A stretch of 20,000 bases of DNA from Trypethelium eluteriae. Lineage: Eukaryota. Under the pieces are notes generated by a model. The model saw only the letters and a program-made list of their open reading frames with translations. It did no database searches and was not told the DNA's origin. Positions 4,086 through 19,566 of the stretch are shown one piece after another (position 1 is the first letter of the stretch; each line of letters starts with the position of its first letter). Both the position numbers and the translations under genes were made by a program. The DNA is taken from the NCBI GenBank assembly GCA_051942245.1, contig JAVECL010000008.1, forward strand, positions 111,573 through 131,572, in the 5' to 3' direction.

Positions 4086-5751
4086 TCAAATCTTTACCAC
4101 GAGTTTCGGCCCCGACTGAACGAATCTTGACGCGCCCAGTACAGCAGCACCGCCACAGCAGATGACGCCAGCGTAGATTTGCAGGTTACGATATTTACCG
4201 TGATCGTCGTCCACCAACGCACCTCCAATTGGATTGCTGATCAACACTGCAATGCTAACGATTCCAAACAAGGTGCCGGTGCGGACACCAATCTTTCGAA
4301 CGTCAGAGATCTGGGCAACGCAGGATGGTGCAGCAGAGACGAAGGCACCCGATCCGAAGCCATAAAGAGCAGCGAAGACGATGAGGGGCGCATTTGCGGC
4401 CGCTGGCAGCCAGAGAGCAAGGATAATGATGCCACTGAAAGCACACATGACGGTGAGGACATTGAAGCGGCCGACTTTGTCAGCAACATAACCTGGTATT
4501 GTTCGGCCAAACACACTGCAGATGTGTCAGCACGGAGCGTCTATTGGAAAAAATAGAAAGGGATACCATACCTGGCCGCATTGAGGATGGGAATCAAATA
4601 GCCCGCCAAGTCCTGGCTCATTCCGATAGACGGACCTTGGAGGATCAAGAAGTTGAAGGGTAAGAACAAGCCCAGGAAGAAGAGGAAGGAGCCAAGAGTC
4701 AGCAAGACGTAGGGAGGTTCTTTCAATGGAAGCACGAACTCAATCAGGTTGAGTGGCTTCTTGACCGGGGGAAGGCGAGATTTGACCGTTAAAATGGCAA
4801 TTATGCACAGTCCAAGGATCATAAAAGCACAAGCTCGCATAGTCCAGGGAAATCCTATCTGGGGAATGAGGCGTTGTACCATGATAGGAAATATAACACC
4901 TCCCATCGAGGAGCCTGACGCAACGATGCCAAGTGCAAACGCACGTTTGTGGAAGAACCATGAAGTAAGGCTGGTCATGGCTGATGGTAATGTTAGCAAG
5001 GTTATGTCTCTCACTCATTCAGACCACGCCTTTGACTTACCTGGATAAAAGACCATACTCGCACCTAGAGCGCTACAGATCCCCTGTGCCAGGATGAACT
5101 GGTAGTACTCGGTCGCTAAGGAGGTCATCATGAGGCCGAAGACGTGAAAGAACGTCCCAGTCACTAGGAGATAAAAGGGTCCATAGTTATCGTAGATTTT
5201 CCCAATGACCGCCCCCTGCGGACCGTCAGTAACGTGAAAACAGGTTGAATGGTTTTGCACGTACACCTGCAAACATCATGAATGCTTCCAGTGAAGGGAT
5301 CCAGGCGACTGTGCTGGGAGCATATTGTGACAGCATATGCGTCTGATAATACGCTTGAAAGACACCGATGCCTAAGTGGCAAGAGTTAGTTTAATCGCTT
5401 GCTTAACCATTCTGTCAAGAGGCATCTTCCAGGTGCAAACTCACAATTAATCCATCCAAATGAGACGAATAGGCAGCACCAGCATCCAGCAACGACTAAC
5501 CAGGCTTTTGCGCCTCCATCTGGAAAATCTGCTGGATTGAATGCTGGCGGTGCACTAGTTGGTGTTGCTTTTTCTAGATCCCCCACTTCATCTGTGCCGT
5601 TCGCTTGCTCCGTAGCCTCCCCTGGGAGCTTGGGAAGAGAGACATCACCGAGATCGTTCGTCTCTGTTGGGGCTTCAGAAGGAGCGTAGCCTCCATCCTG
5701 CTTCTCGCTCTTGTCTCGCATTGTAGACATGGAGGAATATTGGGAAACCAT
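4086..5751 (-). CDS. MFS transporter, monocarboxylate porter (MCT/Mch-like) family; 5 exons, 475 aa
   Basis: Exons 5751-5445, 5371-5265, 5215-5041, 4980-4572 and 4515-4086 are joined by GT-AG introns with CTAAC/CTGAC branch sites (1428 nt, open frame). Family motifs: [87 protein letters not shown]. Confidence 0.95.
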
Positions 5752-11623: not shown

Positions 11624-12520
11624 TGTCATAAGGGCTGGTATGATCATGGAAATTGACTGTTAAGCGTGGCAAATGGGATGGATTTGTGTGGAAGAGATGC
11701 AAATAAGCAAGCTACGAAGTAGAGAAGTCTACAGACCCTAACCCGCCTATATTCTCTGGGATCAAATTCATCGAATGTAGATGTCTCGATTCCATGCAGT
11801 GACAAACTTTATGCACTTTCGTGGCATCACATACTCCTTGTGAAATTGAATGGCATCAGACTAGTACACAATCTTGGCGTGGAACTCGAATACTCAGTCT
11901 CTGAGATTTAAGTTGAGTGCTAGCCGATAGTTACCCTGATAGCTTGTCAAGCCTCCTCGATCTCACATGGAGATTTGAGAATCGAATGCAGAGGATCTAG
12001 ACGACTATGCGCGGCGCTTGACTCGATAAGGCTCGCTCCGTCGAGATTGGGACACGTCGAATACTATTTTCGGCGGACTAGACCACTCTTTACCAGGATC
12101 TTGCCCACATGGCGTCACTAGAGTCTAACGAAATCCAAGCCCGATCTCCTGTTCCTGTCAAACGCTGTCATATTTGACGTGGGTTTCCGGACTTATTCTG
12201 CGTCCTGCGCGTCTTGGATTTTTTCGAATCTTCTGCGAAAAAGTTTCTGGTGCTCCTATCGCAGCTACATGCATACGTTCCTTTCTTGATCTCGTTCTTG
12301 TTTCCCCGCAGATATCGTTATCAAAACAAGATTTGCCTGGAAGCATCCCTGTTGATTTAAATTGACATGACGACTTAATCTGTCCGCACATATCCTCAGG
12401 CCATTTATTTTCAACTTTCGTTTTAAACAGTTCTCATCCGAATTCACCCCTCTCTATCCACATTTAGGAACCGGTTCTGTTTTCGTCCGATATCCAATCC
12501 TACCACGAAGATATATTGTA

Positions 12521-13500
12521 ATGACTCCCTTTTTGGTTTTGACCCTATTGGGTGCTGTGCCACTCGCACTCGGCGACGCATCTTCAAAACGAGGACTTAT
12601 CTTCATACCCGATAATGACCATCCGAACGACGATAATGTCTGGGATTCATCAAGCTCAGATTTAACGTGGTACTATAACTATGGGCCGTCTCCGTCCCCC
12701 AATTATGCCAACACCAAGCTCGAGTTCGTACCAATGCTGTGGGGGAATGAGAGCGACAACTCCTTCCTGGATACGGTCTCGGGTCTGATAGACAGTGGTA
12801 CCAATGTTACGTACGCTCTTGGATTCAACGAACCGGACGGAGTGAGCAACGGTGGCTCCGGCATTGCTGCCGAGGATGCTGCCGCAACCTGGATTCGTCT
12901 TCTCGAGCCTCTTCGCGAGAAATACCATGTCAAGCTAGGCGCTCCTGCAGTAACAGGGTCTCCGTCCGGCTTCACCTGGCTTCAGAACTTCTTCACAGCA
13001 TGCAACGGTGGTTGTCACCCTGAATTCATCCCGGTGCACTGGTATGGAAATTTTGATGGGTTCGCTAGTCACATTGGTCAAGTCAATGCGACCTACATGA
13101 ACATGTCGATGTGGGTGACTGAGTTTGCAATTGCAGACGCCAATCTGAGCGATTCTCAGAGTTTCTTCAACATGAGCACACAGTTTTTGGATAGGCTCGC
13201 GTAAGTCCATCTCTACCGGTCTTGGAAATCAAGACATGCTTCATGATATCAGACTAACAGCCTTCCAGATATGTCGATCGCTACTCTTATTTCGGAGGCT
13301 TCCGCAGCTCAGCATCCAACGTCGGTCCGGATGCCTCAATGCTTGACCAGAACGGTCAGCTCACGGATATCGGAAGTTGGTATTTGGGTGGAAGCGCTAC
13401 CGGAAATGTTCCGAAGGGCATGGGCAGTAATGTCCAAGCCAACCTCTCGTTCGTTTGGACATTGTTTGCTATTCTGGTCCTCTTTTGGAGCGCCTCATGA
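12521..13500 (+). CDS. Glycoside hydrolase family 128 beta-1,3-glucanase (Asl1-like), secreted, probable GPI anchor; 2 exons, 303 aa
   Basis: Exons 12521-13200 and 13269-13500 (intron GTAAGT..CTAAC..CCAG). Signal peptide, then SSKRGL, WYYNY, EFVPMLWG, LGFNEPD (catalytic Glu), PVHWYG, WVTEFA (catalytic Glu) and YVDRYSYFG. Hydrophobic C-terminal tail LSFVWTLFAILVLFWSAS. Confidence 0.93.
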
Positions 13501-14463
13501 CCCAAACTTTAGCGGGCTCTGCCAACTGCTTTCGTAATGTATAGATCACAAGATAGACACAGCATCTTCAGATGTGGCATAGCAAGGTGTTCCAGGTTCA
13601 GCAGATTTTCAAGACTCTGACATTTTGGTACCTTTTCACCATCGTTTCGCGTTAAGCTCGTGTCAATTTCCAAATTTGCCCTCACTCCGGTATGTTCTCT
13701 ATGGATGTATATTTTTTATGCCTTCCGAAGCCTTTACAAAGAGTGCGCGTTACGCGTTTACACAAATATGCATCAGGTAGCTAAGGGTTTTAAGACAGTA
13801 CATAGCGGGTAGATAAACCGGGCTGTTCCAGCCGGGTTATATCACGCTTTGTTGAATGGAGCGTAGCTCATTCGAGAGTATCTCGATGCAAAAGGCGTAT
13901 CATTTTATTTGATGGCATTGTGAATGCTATGAAGGTGTCCATGCCTCTATCCTCGAGATCTTTCGAGTGCGGAGGTACTCCTTACTCGAGCTAGTACAGT
14001 GGTCATTTTTGAAGTGGGAGAGCACTAGACTGGGGGGCCTGGATACTACCAATCAGTATCCGTACTAGCCTTGTCTAGCCTCTGCCATCAACCCATGTAA
14101 AGACTTAGTAGAATAAATTTTGACCTATGAAAAGAATTAATACCTGTAGCAGCTATCCAGTAAAGGACTAAAGCTGTTTTTGAGAACCAATCGGATCACA
14201 CACTATAGTCTCCTGTCTAGCGCTGTCCCACTTCAAAAATGACCACTGTACCCAGCATGATCAAATCCGATAGAAGCGCCCGGCTCGGATACAACTTGAC
14301 GCACCCACCTGAAGCAGAGAGCTCAGCAGCGCTCAGTGGGCGGCTCAAGGCTTTGTTTTTCCGCAGCCTAATCTCACTCCTCGAGACATCTGCACCCGCA
14401 AAAACTGGTACAAATCTTCCTCCGGCCGAGGCGGAGGTTTCATCGGAGTTTTCGGGCTCGGCG

Positions 14464-14472
14464 TTATCAGAT
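14464..14472 (-). promoter_or_regulatory. Extended GATA element ATCTGATAA (SreA/SRE-type ATCWGATAA consensus) upstream of ISU1
   Basis: TTATCAGAT at 14464-14472 is a perfect reverse-complement match, about 210 bp upstream of the ISU1 ATG. A second TGATAA core (ttatca) lies at 14540-14545. Function is inferred. Confidence 0.5.
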
Positions 14473-14682
14473 CAGATGCGAAGTGTAGCACGTGATTTCG
14501 CCACCATGCCCAATTGAGGTCGCGCTTGCCGTCATCGGGTTATCAGGAAGAGCTTCCAGATTCCTCTTGTCATCACAGTACTCTCAATTTCCCTACGACA
14601 TCCACAAGCTTGCCATTCTAGAGACAATCGGTACTTCTGAAAGCCTTTGAGATCATCATTGTTGGATTCCAATTCTTTCGCG

Positions 14683-15468
14683 ATGATGCGGAGAGTGCTT
14701 GCGACAGCGCCACTCCGAGCCAGCCGGCACCTTTCATCCGCCACTCGACCTACGGTCCTTTCAGCACCAAGGGCAGTAGCACCATCTGCTGTGGGACTTA
14801 GCCGGAGGGGTTACCATGAAAAAGATAAGTGTCCATCTCAAGATACGCGCTACTGCCTTCGAGTCGCCAATTCGATGGAAGGGAAGGCTTCCTTAGATGT
14901 AGAGGTCGAATTGAACGCTACCTTTGGACATTAGGCTAACAGACCCAGCACTGCTAGATCATTACAATAATCCCCGAAATGTCGGAAGCATGGGCAAGAA
15001 CGAGGAAGACGTTGGCACGGGACTTGTCGGTGCACCAGCATGCGGCGATGTCATGAAGCTTCAAATCCGAGTGAATCCTGATGACAACACTATCAGTGAC
15101 GTCAAATTCAAGACTTTTGGCTGCGGTTCTGCAATCGCAAGCTCGAGTTACTTGACTGAACTCGTGAGGGGCATGACGTTGGAGCAGGCAGGCAAGATTC
15201 GCAACACCGAGATTGCGAAGGAACTCTGCTTGCCACCAGTTAAGCGTAAGTCTTGAAACGTAGACTTTTGGCGTGAGGCAATGCTAACACCATTGCGTTA
15301 GTTCACTGCTCTATGCTCGCCGAAGATGCCATCAAGTCCGCCATATCAAATTACTATACCAAGAATCCCAAGGCTAGAGCAACCGATCTTGGAGGCACTG
15401 GTGCGGCTATGCCCAAGGTTGAGATTGAGACAGTGACTACAAGCAACCCAAGTGCAGCTCCAGCCTGA
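14683..15468 (+). CDS. ISU1: Mitochondrial iron-sulfur cluster scaffold protein (IscU/NifU-N family); 3 exons, 200 aa
   Basis: Arg/Ser/Ala-rich mitochondrial presequence, then YHEK-V-LDHYNNPRNVG, GLVGAPACGDVMKLQI, FKTFGCGSAIASSS and LCLPPVKLHCSMLAEDAI. Exons 14683-14824, 14952-15245 and 15302-15468 (603 nt). Intron 2 is canonical GT-AG; intron 1 fits best as AT-AC. Confidence 0.97.
14825..14951 (+). other. Predicted non-canonical AT-AC spliceosomal intron (U2-type signals) in ISU1
   Basis: 5' end AAAG/ATAAGT, branch point GCTAAC at 14935-14940, 3' end CAGCAC/TGCTAGAT. Removing it gives AAA GTG CTA GAT CAT TAC = K-V-L-D-H-Y, matching the conserved IscU N-terminus. Confidence 0.75.
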
Positions 15469-16660
15469 GTTTTCTCATTTCATTTGGGAGGTAGAGCGTT
15501 CAAAACACCTAGGTCCTTCTTTCAGAAATTCCCTCGTTACGGCGTTGGGACTTCTGCGTACCATCTTTGACAGAGCGCGGATCTGAACAGCTTGAAGGAG
15601 AGATCGAAATGGTCCAGCATCGAGAATGATACCAGTTGGCTCGCTATTCCATATACAATGTTGTAGCAGTACAATAAAATTATGGGAGACATCAGGACAT
15701 CCCTACCTGGAAAGATAAAAATTAGGGGAAAGTACTCCGTAGAAACGGAAACGTTGACGCCTTTGAAGCTGTTTCCAGCTGGTGAAGCTTATTTCCAATC
15801 TTCGTAGGTGACGTTCTGTCAAGGTCGTAAGCAAGATTTCTATCCTCTGCCTTCGGGGGGCGTTGCTTTCCACGACTACGGTAGTTCTTGGGAATGTAGT
15901 CGCGAGCTCTCAGTCTAAATCATTCGGAGCATAAAGCTTCTTCACTAAACTTCAAGAATGACGACTACACACGCGTAAGGTGTTGTGCATGATTAATTCA
16001 GCAGTGTGGGCAAGTGCAAGCTGGGATAATCGCGGCTCTTGGGTCCCTACGACATGATCTAGCTGCGAAGTCGGGAATAGAGCCTGTGCTAAGAGACCAT
16101 AACATGGAGCACTATTGGAAAGTTGCATTCAGGGTTTCTTGCAAGATTTCAGCGAGCCACAGGGTCTTCCATTACTAAAAATACCCGTCCAAAGTGTTGC
16201 GAGCCAAACAACACGATGCTAACGTCATGGGATGTGTAAGGTGCGTGCCGAGCTTTGCGAGAAGCATGCAGACGAATCAACGCGAATGACACGAGCAAAG
16301 TGTGGACGTAACAGTCTGGATTGGGTACCGTGATACGACGTCTCACGGTCGCAATGTGGCTGAGCGGCAAAGATGGCGATGGCGCACTTCTTCCCCTGAC
16401 TCGGGCACTTCTGGAAGGGAACGTTGAGTGCGCCACGAGAACTGTCACCCGCCCAAAATATCACATACGGTAGCTAGCATGCGTGCTGTGGTCAAGCCCA
16501 AAATCTCGTAGATATTACCAGCGCGAGCCCGTCTGTGACTCTTGAGAGCATTATTTTCCCGAGCAATCATCGAAAGCTTCTCGAACCAGCCAGGCTTGGG
16601 TGCTTGGTTGCAATCTTAATCGCGGATCAACGGTGTCTGGACCTCGCGTGCCGCCAGACT

Positions 16661-16685: not shown

Positions 16686-17225
16686 CTACCCCGGACCTCC
16701 TGTCATTGGTCGGGACCCTGCAACTCCTACGATTCTCCGTGAAACCCAGGGTGCCAAGCCAGGGTTAGCCTGCTTCGTCTCCATCCCCCAGTCTCCAGAG
16801 TCTCCCTTCACAATCTTCCTCTCGCGCCCGGCCTCTCTTTTCTTTGTACGACAGGACTCTTCATCCTTGACCCTCTTTTCATCTTGATCGCTCGTTGTAT
16901 AGTGCCACTCATTATCGGAAAACCACACAGTCTCCTCTTGTTGTCCGTTACGACATTCACACGACCATCGCTTTTGGCACCTCCTTACTTTTCTCGGCAC
17001 GAAACACCGAGCCCATCTTCAAACCGTCTACACACTTCTGAAGCACTAATACGCAATCCGACTTCACGATCTCTAACACTTGGACTTTCATCACACGACT
17101 CACGATACCCATTTTAACACAGGCTCCATAACGTCACGAGAGCCCTCCATCGCATCGAGAAGACAAAACACCTCATCTTGCCCACTGGGCCGCCACCTAG
17201 GGCCGGGTCCAAGGCCACCTGCACC

Positions 17226-19566
17226 ATGAGAACCGCATCGCGTAGTTCAAATATTCTTTCTTCTCTATTTTTCCTTAGTGCTCTTCCTTCTGTTGTCCTC
17301 GGTGACAGCCAAATCCTCTCCACAGCCGGCTTCACGAACTGTTTGAACAATGGCTCGATCAATGTCACGCAAATGAATGTGGTCTACAACCATGCAACGA
17401 ACGCAATCGATTTCGATGTCGCTGGTACGAGCGCGTCGGAGCAAAAGGTCAATGCGACATTAACCTTCACTGCGTATGGCAAACAGGTGTATTCGAAAGA
17501 CTTTGATCCCTGTGACCCGTCAACGCTCGTTCAGCAGTTATGTCCAAGTATGAAAGCAGTCCCATTTTCAAGGAGAATCTCGAGCTGATTGCATACTATA
17601 GTACCCGCCGGACAATTTGCCGCGTCTGGCCAGCAAACCATCCCCGGTGAATTCGCAAAGCAAATACCTGCGATTGCTTTCAACGTTCCAGACCTTGACG
17701 GAGTCGGCAAGGTCGAACTGAAGTCACAAGATGGGCAGGATCTGGCATGTGTTCAATCGAACCTTGGAAACGGCAAGACGATGCAGAACGTTGCGGTGCC
17801 TATTGTTGCCGCTGCCATTGCAGGTGCAGCACTGCTCGTCTCTGCTCTTTCAGCATTGGCAAGTGGTGGACATCCGGGCAGCGCAAACCCAAGCCCAACC
17901 TTCACTGAGACCATGGGCTGGTTTCAATCCATGGCCCTCAACGGCATGCTGAGCGTTAATTATCCCTCGGTTTATCAAAGTTTCAGCACCAACTTTGCAT
18001 TCAGCACGGGCTTGATTCCGTGGGGACAGATGCAGACCTCCATTGACAACTTTCGAAACAAGACTGGTGGCAACTTGACCGATGACAATTACCAATTCTT
18101 GCGCAATAATGTTACCCTGGTCCAGACCGACGGGCAATCGACGAATATCACCAAGCGCGGTATCGACTTGTTCCTTGAAAAAACTGTATTATTTGTTCGG
18201 GATAGCATCAGCACAAATGTGAATGGATCCTCTGAGGGCACTGGTAATGGAACTGGCAATAACTCCACCAGCGGAAACAACAAGGAATCGCTTCTTGTCC
18301 ATGGCATCCAAGGTTATGTCGAGGAACTTACTATTCCACAAGCAAATACCTTCATGACTGTACTTTTGATCTTTGCCATCGTCATTGCTGGCATCACCGT
18401 CGGAATTCTTCTCTTCAAAGTCATCCTCGAAACTTGGGCACTCTTCGGATCTTTCCCCAAAAAGCTTCAAGGTTTCCGCAAACGATACTGGTGGCTACTT
18501 GCCAAGACCATTACCAATTTGATTCTTCTCCTTTATGGCACTTGGACCCTGTACTGTGTCTACCAATTTACTAACGGAGATTCCTGGGCCGCCAAGGTGC
18601 TTGCAGGAGTCACACTCGCGGCCTTTACTGCTATCCTCGCGTTTTTCACCTGGAGAATTTGGAGTCTCGCGCACAAGTTCAGGCGGGCAGAAGGCGACAC
18701 ATCGGCGCTTTTCGACGACAAGGAGACTTGGCGCAAGTACAGTCTCTTCTACGAGAATTACAAGCGTGGGTACTGGTGGCTATTCGTGCCTGCTATCGTC
18801 TACATGTTTGCTCGTGGTTGTGTCATCGCTGGTGGAGACGGACACGGTCTTGCACAATCGGTTGGACAGCTCGTCATCGAAAGTTTGATGCTGATCCTCC
18901 TGCTTTGGTCTCGCCCTTACTCACTGAAGAGTGGAAATTGGATCAACATCGTCATCCAGGTCGTGAGGATCTTGTCTGTTGTTTGCATCTTGGTCTTCGT
19001 CGAAGAGCTTGGAATCGCCCAAACCACAAAGGCCATCACAGGCGTGATCCTTATTGTCATGCAATCCGTCTTGACTGGACTCTTGGGAATCTTAATTGCA
19101 GTCAACGCCATTGTGACCTGCTGCAGAGAGAATCCACACCGAAGGAAGAGAAAGGAAGCCGGTAAGTTTGACTATCCCTTTGACCGCATCAGGCCCCTTC
19201 CACACGGAATGCTAATATTAGCTCTCTTCAGAAAAACTTCACCGCGACCTCGACACTCTCACTCCCCTGGACGCCCGCAACTCCCTCCTTATGGACCCCA
19301 CCGAAGCCAAGAAATTCATCCCCGCCCCCACCACTACAAAATCACCCCTCGTCTCGCCAAATCCTATGGCAGCACCTTCCAACTTCTCTCGCAAGGGTGG
19401 TTATGGCCCTGTTGCTCAAGATCAACACGGCCTCATGTCGGATGCGGCGCCCATGGGTGGGCATGACCGGAGCGTCAGTCCTGCGCCGTGGGATGAAGAG
19501 GTGGGACGGGAGCCAAAGCTACCCGACTTGGATGCTGATACGAGCTATCATCGGGGAAGATGGTAG
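17226..19566 (+). CDS. TRP-like ion channel / flavin carrier family protein (FLC/Pkd2-like; TRP_N ML-like domain plus TRP membrane domain); 3 exons, 738 aa
   Basis: Exons 17226-17547, 17602-19161 and 19232-19566 with GT-AG introns (2217 nt). Signal peptide, then GFTNC, AYGKQVYSKDFDPC, IPAIAFNVPDLDG, LACVQSNLGNGKT, WFQSMALNGMLSVNYPSVYQSFSTNFAFSTGLIPW, IPQANTFMT, GDSWAAK and multiple TM helices. Exon 3 begins EKLHRDLDTLTPLDARNSLL. Confidence 0.95.

What the first reader, a model, noticed from the sequence alone, without database searches (positions are those of the whole stretch)
14825..14951. Non-canonical AT-AC intron in the Fe-S scaffold gene ISU1
Seen: exon 1 ends ...TAC CAT GAA AAA G followed by ATAAGT, a GTAAGT donor with G+1 changed to A. 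A GCTAAC branch point is followed 11 nt later by ...CAC/TG CTA GAT CAT TAC. Only the AT...AC junction gives the conserved YHEKVLDHY. The best canonical alternative (weak donor GTCCAT at 14831 to CAG at 14948) gives YHEKDKSLLDHY, and AT-AG gives YHEKALLDHY. Established: the signals are U2-type (no U12 ATATCC donor or TCCTTAAC branch site), filamentous ascomycetes are generally considered to lack the minor spliceosome, and paired A..C terminal changes are known to be mutually compensating. Inference: this is a rare major-spliceosome AT-AC intron that gene callers would mis-splice. Retention reads to TAG 14932-14934 and yields only the presequence plus junk, so splicing efficiency could throttle Isu1 levels.
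Basis: partly seen in the sequence, partly recalled or inferred. Interest (0 to 1): 0.85.

Follow-up and report, generated by a model that had tools for sequence, protein, structure and literature searches.

The report
Ancient AT-AC intron in fungal ISU1
The first intron of this lichen-type fungus's iron-sulfur scaffold gene ISU1 really begins with AT and ends with AC instead of GT and AG, is cut out exactly there in transcripts, is shared with distant filamentous ascomycetes, and often misleads gene predictors, but nothing shows that it regulates the gene.

Summary
Observation confirmed. ISU1 (+ strand, 14683-15468, 200 aa) has two introns. Intron 1 (14825-14951, 127 nt) starts ATAAGT, has a GCTAAC branch site 11 nt before its end, and ends CAC. 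Of all in-frame open splice options tested, only AT(14825)-AC(14951) gives YHEKVLDHY. A public cDNA-like contig, identical to the window, joins 14824^14952 exactly. A second contig joins the ordinary GT-AG intron 2.

All 4 orthologous metagenome loci that carry an intron at this site have AT...AC with U2-like signals. One is 99% identical to the truffle relative Terfezia (Pezizomycetes), so the state predates the split from Dothideomycetes. Four other loci lack intron 1. None has GT-AG.

Of 226 related public protein models, 36 read through the intron ends and 24-26 lack exon 1.

The signals are major-spliceosome type. Published surveys find no minor spliceosome in Ascomycota.

The idea that the intron throttles Isu1 is unsupported: the intron interior is not conserved and some relatives have lost the intron.

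This is a new member of a known kind (U2-type AT-AC introns). I found no paper on it. This scan had already noted it in three other fungal genomes.

The parts
14683..14824 (+). ISU1 exon 1: start codon and arginine-rich N-terminal presequence, ending ..GYHEK plus the first base (G) of the Val codon
   Evidence: Translation. The same MMRRVLATAP start is seen in the Bogoriella model P0013. A cDNA-like contig covers 14739-14824.
14825..14951 (+). Intron 1, 127 nt, AT-AC termini, phase 1
   Evidence: Sequence. A contig joint 14824^14952 is reported as 'AT..AC, skips 127, both 0'. It is the only splice option giving YHEKVLDHY.
14825..14830 (+). 5' splice site ATAAGT: the U2-type GTAAGT with A at +1
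   Evidence: All 5 aligned introns read ATA-N-GT.
14935..14940 (+). Branch site GCTAAC (presumed branch A at 14939, 12 nt from the intron end)
   Evidence: CTAAC is present in all 5 orthologous introns. Intron 2 of the same gene also uses GCTAAC.
14949..14951 (+). 3' splice site CAC (a YAG-like site with C as last base)
   Evidence: The intron ends CAC in 4 of 5 introns and AAC in L010.
14946..14948 (+). Unused CAG 3 nt upstream of the real 3' end. Gene predictors take it as acceptor and produce ..ALLDHY
   Evidence: The ALLDHY signature appears in public models P0012 and P0013. A CAG near the end is present in the window, L009 and L011 but not in L007 or L010.
14932..14934 (+). In-frame TAG that ends translation if intron 1 is retained
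14952..15245 (+). ISU1 exon 2: NifU_N core, from the last two bases of the Val codon through ..LPPVK
   Evidence: Pfam NifU_N E 8.7e-39. Contigs cover 14952-15055 and 15158-15245.
15246..15301 (+). Intron 2, 56 nt, canonical GTAAGT...GCTAAC...TAG
   Evidence: Contig joint 15245^15302 is reported as 'GT..AG'. The intron at this position is GT-AG in L003, L007, L009, L010 and L011.
15302..15468 (+). ISU1 exon 3 with stop TGA at 15466-15468
   Evidence: A contig covers 15302-15498.

Best explanation
Intron 1 of the mitochondrial Fe-S scaffold gene ISU1 is a constitutive AT-AC intron removed by the major (U2-dependent) spliceosome.

Proposed mechanism. The donor AAG|AUAAGU can pair with U1 and U6 at every usual position except +1. 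GCUAAC is the standard fungal U2 branch site. The unusual A at the first intron position is matched by C at the last position. This replaces the G-G contact between intron ends that the second catalytic step needs.

Proposed history. The state is old: it is shared by Dothideomycetes and a Pezizomycete. It probably persists because changing only one end (GT-AC or AT-AG) would impair splicing of an essential gene. The easy evolutionary exit is then loss of the whole intron, not conversion to GT-AG.

Practical effect. Gene predictors that allow only GT/GC-AG produce wrong or N-terminally truncated Isu1 models.

Shown here: the termini, the exact junction in a transcript-like contig, conservation in relatives, and the mis-annotation. 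Inferred: U2 dependence, the A-C end contact, and the 'trap' explanation.
For: Junction and sequence:
- Sequence and coordinates.
- Only AT-AC restores YHEKVLDHY.
- Run X1 has a 190-nt contig joining 14824^14952 (AT..AC, 86 and 104 nt on the two sides, no mismatch, joint not slidable) and a 285-nt contig joining 15245^15302 (GT..AG). No cover lies in either intron or outside the transcript.

Orthologues, 11 fungal loci among 80 returned:
- 4 carry an intron at this site, and all 4 are AT...AC (L007 ATAAGT..CAC, L009 ATAGGT..CAC, L010 ATAAGT..AAC, L011 ATACGT..CAC), each with CTAAC.
- 4 lack intron 1 but keep intron 2 (L001, L003, L004, L005). L003 lies on a 244,961-bp contig.
- 3 lack both introns and look like cDNA (L002, L006, L008).
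- 0 have GT-AG at this site.
- L011 is 99% identical to Terfezia boudieri IscU, which is Pezizomycetes.
- The nearest named relatives of the window are Trypetheliales, Dothideomycetes.

Protein models:
- Of 226 related proteins, 36 have an aberrant junction (bins 38; 2 of these, P0005 and P0006, are ordinary non-fungal forms).
- 35 of the 36 have Leu just before LDHY, as expected from C|TN.
- In all 35, the residue before that Leu is A, L, S, P, T or V, each of which has a codon ending in A. This fits an intron ending in AC.
- 12 keep YHEKD, which fits G|AT read through.

Signals and literature:
- No U12-type donor or branch motif is present.
- Passages state that U12 splicing components and minor introns are absent from Ascomycota (PMC2846911; PMC10639083).
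Against: - U2 dependence was not tested. No genome is held for this window, so I could not check that U11, U12, U4atac and U6atac genes are absent in this species.
- Run X1 is only guessed to be RNA. My reading of it as cDNA rests on exact removal of both introns and on missing cover of introns and flanks. Depth is low (about 2.8) and only one study holds it.
- Contigs cannot show minor isoforms, so use of the CAG at 14948 or intron retention at some level is not excluded.
- The orthologue sample is small (4 introns). Three of them (L007, L009, L010) could not be placed taxonomically.
- L001, L004 and L005 could be partly spliced RNA rather than genomic intron loss.
- The protein-model signature is indirect. 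The second protein search admitted shorter proteins, which enriches for truncated models.
- The 'evolutionary trap' argument is inference.
Confidence: 0.88

Rival explanations
1. The intron is a regulatory throttle or switch. Inefficient AT-AC splicing, or competition with the CAG 3 nt upstream, would set Isu1 protein levels, perhaps in response to iron. Retained or mis-spliced RNA would give only the presequence or a one-residue-longer protein.
For: Retention does stop at TAG 14932-14934. A CAG lies 3 nt before the real end and would give YHEKALLDHY. The AT-AC ends are conserved over a very long time.
Against: - Apart from the splice signals, the five introns share no conserved block, and their lengths range from 90 to 146 nt.
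- The nearby CAG is absent in L007 and L010 and sits at a different distance in L011.
- The intron has been lost outright in at least L003, and probably in L001, L004 and L005. It is therefore dispensable.
- Conservation of the ends is explained more simply by the need to change both ends at once.
Confidence: 0.08
2. The intron is a minor-spliceosome (U12-dependent) AT-AC intron.
For: AT-AC termini. The branch-to-3'-end distance is short (12 nt in the window; 10-12 nt in 4 of 5 introns). The intron is phase 1.
Against: - The donor is ATAAGT, ATAGGT or ATACGT, not the ATATCC type.
- The branch site is G/A-CTAAC, the same as in the GT-AG intron 2 of this gene, not TCCTTAAC.
- Passages in PMC2846911 and PMC10639083 report no U12 snRNAs and no convincing minor introns in Ascomycota.
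- Short branch-to-3' distances are usual for fungal U2 introns (recalled knowledge).
Confidence: 0.03
3. It is an artefact. Either assembly errors at 14825 and 14951 hide an ordinary GT-AG intron, or the joined contig comes from an intron-less DNA copy rather than from RNA.
For: The junction contig has low depth (2.8), and run X1 is only guessed to be RNA.
Against: - The same A...C ends occur in four independently assembled loci from other fungi.
- They are implied by 35 independent mis-spliced gene models.
- A DNA run of the organism would also cover introns and flanks, and X1 does not.
- Two errors that happen to compensate each other are improbable.
Confidence: 0.01

Closest known systems
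U2-type ('type II') AT-AC introns of animals, e.g. human SCN4A and SCN5A (described in Sheth et al. 2006, PMC1557818; passages read)
   Same: AT-AC termini on an otherwise U2-type 5' splice site. The ends are conserved over long evolutionary distances. Very rare (24 of 610,067 introns in that survey's table).
   Different: This case is in a fungal lineage reported to have no minor spliceosome at all. It sits in a housekeeping mitochondrial gene. The introns are short (90-146 nt) with a fungal CTAAC branch site. U2 dependence is not shown experimentally here.
Engineered first-base G-to-A and last-base G-to-C double mutants of yeast introns (Parker and Siliciano 1993; Chanfreau et al. 1994; both listed in the references of PMC1557818; details recalled, papers not read)
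   Same: An A at the first intron position is rescued by C at the last. This is the pairing seen naturally here in 5 of 5 introns.
   Different: Those are laboratory mutants in S. cerevisiae reporter introns. Here the pair is a natural state kept across classes of fungi.
U12-type AT-AC introns of the minor spliceosome
   Same: The terminal dinucleotides, the non-zero phase and the short branch-to-3' distance.
   Different: There is no ATATCC-type donor and no TCCTTAAC branch site. The host lineage is reported to lack U12 splicing.
AT-AC II introns suspected in xylanase genes of filamentous fungi (mentioned in PMC1557818; original work not read)
   Same: Filamentous fungi, with AT-AC ends thought to be handled by the major spliceosome.
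   Different: A different gene. I did not see their sequences or how widely they are conserved.
Earlier notes of this scan: conserved AT-AC intron in ISU1 of three other fungal genomes (e1-7709876, e1-7679997, e1-7502421), and AT-AC introns in fungal U1-C and CTP synthase genes
   Same: For ISU1, the same gene, same position and same reading. For the others, the same class of intron in other housekeeping genes.
   Different: These are AI notes on other DNA, used only as leads. This report adds an exact transcript-like junction in this species and a Pezizomycete (Terfezia-like) orthologue with AT-AC.

Membership tests
U2-type (type II) AT-AC intron | Intron begins AT and ends AC | tested here: met
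   AT at 14825-14826 and AC at 14950-14951. The contig joint is reported as AT..AC.
U2-type (type II) AT-AC intron | 5' splice site matches the U2-type consensus except for position +1 (the criterion used in PMC1557818) | tested here: met
   ATAAGT against GTAAGT, with exon side AAG. All 5 introns read ATA-N-GT. No position-weight score was computed.
U2-type (type II) AT-AC intron | The intron is actually removed at these ends in vivo | tested here: met
   A 190-nt contig joins 14824^14952 with no mismatch and cannot be slid. Caveat: the run is only guessed to be RNA, it is one study, and depth is 2.8.
U2-type (type II) AT-AC intron | Splicing needs U1/U2/U4/U6 and not U11/U12/U4atac/U6atac | not testable with these tools
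   Inferred from the signals and from literature passages saying Ascomycota lack U12 splicing. No genome is held for this window.
U12-type intron | Donor of the A/G-TATCC type | tested here: not met
   The donor is ATAAGT in the window and ATAAGT, ATAGGT, ATAAGT, ATACGT in the orthologues.
U12-type intron | TCCTTAAC-type branch site 10-15 nt from the 3' end | tested here: not met
   The branch site is GCTAAC or ACTAAC. The distance would fit but the motif does not. The consensus is recalled, not taken from a call.
ISU1/ISCU Fe-S scaffold (NifU_N) | NifU_N domain | tested here: met
   Pfam PF01592 E 8.7e-39 on exon 2, continued in exon 3. Identity to named fungal Isu1 proteins is 88-99%.
ISU1/ISCU Fe-S scaffold (NifU_N) | Three cluster-binding cysteines and the LPPVK motif (feature list recalled) | tested here: met
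   APACGD, FGCGSA, LPPVK and HCSML are visible in the translations.
Regulated intron-retention or alternative-acceptor switch | Conserved intronic control element or conserved competing site | tested here: not met
   No conserved block beyond the splice signals. The competing CAG is not conserved in place.
Regulated intron-retention or alternative-acceptor switch | Alternative isoforms present and condition-dependent | not testable with these tools
   Only assembled contigs of one run could be laid. Contigs drop rare variants and give no levels.

The most novel reading that the evidence does not exclude
The ISU1 AT-AC intron may be a molecular fossil of a U12-type AT-AC intron. The same could hold for the few other AT-AC introns this scan has noted in housekeeping genes of filamentous ascomycetes (U1-C, CTP synthase).

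On this reading, when the ancestor of Dikarya lost the minor spliceosome, these introns survived. They acquired U2-type donor and branch signals but kept the AT-AC ends, which can only be changed together. Such introns would then mark the sites of former minor introns and show how a lineage escapes dependence on the second spliceosome.

Not excluded by my data: the intron is phase 1, it is at least as old as the Pezizomycete-Dothideomycete split, and its branch site lies close to the 3' end. Weakly against: 'ISCU' does not occur in the held supplementary files of two minor-intron surveys.
Probability: 0.12. Interest if true: 0.75.

Novelty: new member of a known kind. Interest (0 to 1): 0.48.

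Why it matters
1. Annotation. ISU1 is an essential, much-studied gene. A sizeable share of public fungal models are wrong at this point. Of the 226 proteins examined, 36 have aberrant junctions and 24-26 start only downstream of the junction. One model is fused to the upstream glycosyl hydrolase gene (P0012). These models lose the mitochondrial presequence or carry junk residues, which affects localisation predictions and comparative studies. Allowing AT-AC at this site would correct them.

2. Splicing biology. This is a natural, long-lived example of the first-base/last-base pairing rule of the major spliceosome, in a lineage reported to have no minor spliceosome. In this small sample the pattern is 'AT-AC or no intron, never GT-AG'. 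That fits the idea that such ends are an evolutionary trap.

3. Origin. The intron offers a concrete site at which to test whether AT-AC introns in Dikarya descend from minor introns.

Tried and rejected
- Own genome: none is held, so I could not search for minor-spliceosome snRNA genes or survey other AT-AC introns in this species.
- Sequencing runs: no RNA holder is listed on record. The single run returned (X1) is labelled 'RNA?' as a guess. It was laid once. Only contigs were available, so levels, retention and minor isoforms could not be assessed. The parts without cover say nothing.
- Genome-contig scan with exon 2: all 80 loci are bacterial IscU (Acidobacteriota and others). No fungal DNA was gained. 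By identity (75% or less), L012-L080 of the metagenome scan are likewise taken as non-fungal and were not analysed.
- Naming L007, L009 and L010 by local BLASTP of exon 2 against the named proteins failed. Exon 2 is too conserved, with many classes tied at 87-95%.
- The search of earlier findings by sequence and by place returned nothing.
- Literature. The search was too loose (40,195 hits) and gave nothing usable. The 'AT-AC' hits in PMC3091305 are polyketide-synthase domain strings. PMC3577648 only lists AT-AC among rare splice sites of Fusarium graminearum. 'ISU1' with 'AT-AC' gave 0 papers. 'ISCU' with 'U12-type intron' gave 1 paper, on pseudoexons, which I did not read.
- 'ISCU' in the held supplements of PMC11347168 and PMC10639083 had 0 occurrences. 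Only one file per paper was held, so this is weak.
- Canonical splice alternatives (GT at 14810, 14829 or 14831; GC at 14801 and others) were rejected. All change or lengthen the conserved YHEKVLDHY, and none is seen in the contigs.
- I did not use the third protein search, structure prediction or complex prediction. They would not bear on the question.

Full report
**1. What is in the sequence**

On the + strand the window holds a three-exon gene: exon 1 at 14683-14824, exon 2 at 14952-15245 and exon 3 at 15302-15468 (stop TGA at 15466-15468). It encodes 200 residues.
- Exon 2 matches Pfam NifU_N at E 8.7e-39, and exon 3 continues the domain.
- Over exon 2 the protein is 88-99% identical to named fungal Isu1/IscU proteins.
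- The nearest are models from Trypethelium subeluteriae (99%) and Bogoriella megaspora (97%). Both are Trypetheliales, Dothideomycetes. The window therefore comes from a lichen-type fungus of that order.
- Neighbouring genes are a Glyco_hydro_cc gene upstream (12371-13204), a TRP-like channel downstream (17118-19466) and an MFS transporter on the other strand.

**2. Check of the observation**

- the donor ATAAGT lies at 14825-14830, after ...AAA G;
- GCTAAC lies at 14935-14940, followed by 11 nt that end in CAC at 14949-14951;
- exon 2 starts TG CTA GAT CAT TAC.

One search tried every GT/GC/AT donor between 14790 and 14869 against every AG/AC acceptor between 14900 and 14989, keeping combinations that hold the frame open.
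- Only 14825-14951 gives GYHEKVLDHYNNPR.
- Retention ends at TAG 14932-14934, after 36 unrelated residues.

**3. Transcript evidence**

One public run (coded X1, labelled 'RNA?' as a guess) held 29% of the sampled words of 14560-15660. Two of its contigs lay on 14400-15800.
- A 190-nt contig covers 14739-14824 joined directly to 14952-15055. It is reported as 'skips 127, AT..AC', with 86 nt on the shorter side, no letters that fit on either side of the joint and no mismatch.
- A 285-nt contig covers 15158-15245 joined to 15302-15498 ('skips 56, GT..AG').
- There is no cover in either intron, upstream of 14729 or downstream of 15527.

Exact removal of both introns, with no intronic or flanking cover, is what cDNA gives. 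I therefore read X1 as transcript-derived.

Limits: one study, depth about 2.8, and contigs only. Minor isoforms and levels cannot be judged.

**4. Relatives, at DNA level**

A scan of metagenome contigs with exon 2 returned 80 loci. Only L001-L011 are fungal by identity (66-93%). The rest (75% or less) resemble the bacterial IscU loci found in the genome collection.

At the YHEK|V site:
- Four loci carry an intron, and all four are AT...AC:
  - L007: ATAAGT...GCTAAC...CAC, 105 nt
  - L009: ATAGGT...GCTAAC...CAC, 146 nt
  - L010: ATAAGT...ACTAAC...AAC, 128 nt
  - L011: ATACGT...GCTAAC...CAC, 90 nt
- Four loci have no intron 1 but still have intron 2 (L001, L003, L004, L005). L003 lies on a 244,961-bp contig, so it is a genomic intron loss. 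The other three could be genomic or partly spliced RNA.
- Three loci lack both introns and look like cDNA (L002, L006, L008).
- None has GT-AG at this site.
- In the same genes, intron 2 is GT-AG in all five loci checked, and L011 has one further GT-AG intron.

L011 is 99% identical to Terfezia boudieri IscU, a member of Pezizomycetes. The AT-AC state is thus shared between Dothideomycetes and Pezizomycetes, which NCBI's lineage places outside the clade leotiomyceta, and so is very probably ancestral for filamentous ascomycetes.

Aligned, the five introns share only G|ATA-N-GT, CTAAC and the terminal AC.

**5. Relatives, at the level of gene models**

I examined 226 proteins from two searches (120 of 171 aa or longer; 106 new ones of 119 aa or longer). 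One search sorts them as follows:
- 153 have the canonical junction.
- 38 are binned as aberrant. Two of these (P0005, P0006) are ordinary non-fungal forms, leaving 36.
- 24 start at the internal Met just after ..NVGS. Two more of this kind (P0134, P0138) sit among the 11 'other'.

Among the 36 aberrant models:
- 35 have Leu directly before LDHY. This is what reading ...AC|TN in frame gives (C-T-N).
- In all 35, the residue before that Leu is A (15), L (9), S (6), P (2), T (2) or V (1). Each of these has a codon ending in A. None is a residue without such a codon.
- Eighteen of the 38 binned aberrant show 'LT' a few residues upstream, which is CTAAC read in frame.
- Twelve of the 38 keep YHEKD, which is G|AT read through.

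Named examples come from several groups:
- Dothideomycetes: Trypethelium, Bogoriella, Phyllosticta, Aureobasidium, Coniosporium, and genera I take from recall to be Pleosporales;
- Candelariomycetes: Candelina and Pycnora;
- Pezizomycetes: Terfezia.

Truncated models occur in further genera (Geoglossum, Trichoglossum, Lignoscripta, Lambiella, Loxospora, Candelaria). Truncation alone is weaker evidence.

Within Phyllosticta both correct and wrong models exist. A correct YHEKV in a model therefore does not show a GT-AG intron.

The sample is not random, because the second search admitted short proteins.

**6. Which spliceosome**

The donor differs from the fungal U2 consensus only at +1. The branch site is the same GCTAAC that the GT-AG intron 2 of this gene uses. 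The U12-type donor and branch motifs (recalled consensus) are absent in all five introns.

Passages read in PMC2846911 and PMC10639083 state that U12 components and convincing minor introns are missing in Ascomycota. Passages in PMC1557818:
- define U2-type 'AT-AC II' introns by the same criterion;
- count 24 among 610,067 introns of five animals and plants;
- note that a first-base G-to-A change is rescued by a G-to-C transversion (the shown passage breaks off before the position; last base is recalled from Parker and Siliciano 1993, which it cites);
- mention that some xylanase genes of filamentous fungi were suspected to hold such introns.

PMC7072748 finds AT-AC rare in fungal annotations. 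I conclude, by inference, that the major spliceosome removes this intron.

**7. How it most likely works and why it persists**

Shown:
- AT-AC ends and the exact junction;
- deep conservation of both ends together;
- repeated loss of the whole intron;
- no GT-AG form in the sample.

Inferred: U1/U6 recognise AAG|AUAAGU despite A at +1, U2 pairs with GCUAAC, and the A(first)-C(last) pair substitutes for G-G at the second step. Because either single reversion would break that pair in an essential gene, the state is stable. Lineages leave it by intron loss.

**8. The regulatory idea**

Nothing found here supports a throttle on Isu1:
- the intron interior is not conserved;
- the competing CAG is not conserved;
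- the intron is dispensable in some relatives.

The idea cannot be excluded, because expression levels and isoforms could not be measured.

**9. Novelty**

The kind is known (U2-type AT-AC introns). The ISU1 case is a new member.

I found no paper holding both 'ISU1' and 'AT-AC'. Nothing relevant appeared among the 6 papers with 'AT-AC' and 'Pezizomycotina' (listing only) or the 18 with 'AT-AC', 'filamentous fungi' and 'intron' (listing; passages read). Subscription journals are not searched.

This scan itself has already reported the same intron in ISU1 of three other fungal genomes, and similar introns in U1-C and CTP synthase. I used those notes as leads only.

**10. Verdict**

- Real feature: 0.95.
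- U2-type AT-AC intron, old and constitutive: 0.88.
- Regulatory switch: about 0.08.
- Relic of a minor intron: about 0.12. This is the most novel reading left open.

Interest is moderate. The main values are correcting the annotation of an essential gene and providing a natural test case for the intron-end pairing rule.

Noticed in passing
window 13994-14033 and 14212-14251: An inverted repeat with 40-nt arms, 93% complementary, 178 nt apart, lies in the spacer between the glycosyl hydrolase gene and ISU1. It looks like a small foldback or MITE-like element. A related word seems to recur near 15950 (ORF translations).
   Followed up: no
window 12371-13204 through 15468; protein P0012: The public model of the Trypethelium subeluteriae orthologue (961 aa) fuses further upstream sequence and the upstream Glyco_hydro_cc gene to ISU1, entering exon 2 through ..PALLDHY. 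This chimera was probably created because the predictor could not splice the AT-AC intron.
   Followed up: partly
L003 1671-2700 and L007 1670-2700: Two ISU1 loci with the same assembly prefix (apparently one metagenome assembly), each 90% identical to the window's exon 2, differ in structure. L003 has no intron 1 and L007 has the AT-AC intron. Both keep the GT-AG intron 2.
   Followed up: partly
L011 2001-2170: The Terfezia-like orthologue has an extra GT-AG intron inside the APAC|GD cysteine motif of exon 2. The Dothideomycete loci lack it.
   Followed up: no
L001, L004, L005: These three short contigs have YHEKVLDHY uninterrupted but still carry the intron after PPVK. They are either genomic copies that lost intron 1 (L001 is 98-99% like Cladosporium-type proteins) or transcripts that retain intron 2.
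   Followed up: partly
window 17118-19466 (+) and 4086-5014 (-): A TRP-like ion channel gene (TRP_N plus TRP, E 4e-152) is split over two adjacent reading frames, probably by an intron. An MFS transporter is split likewise. These are ordinary neighbours.
   Followed up: no
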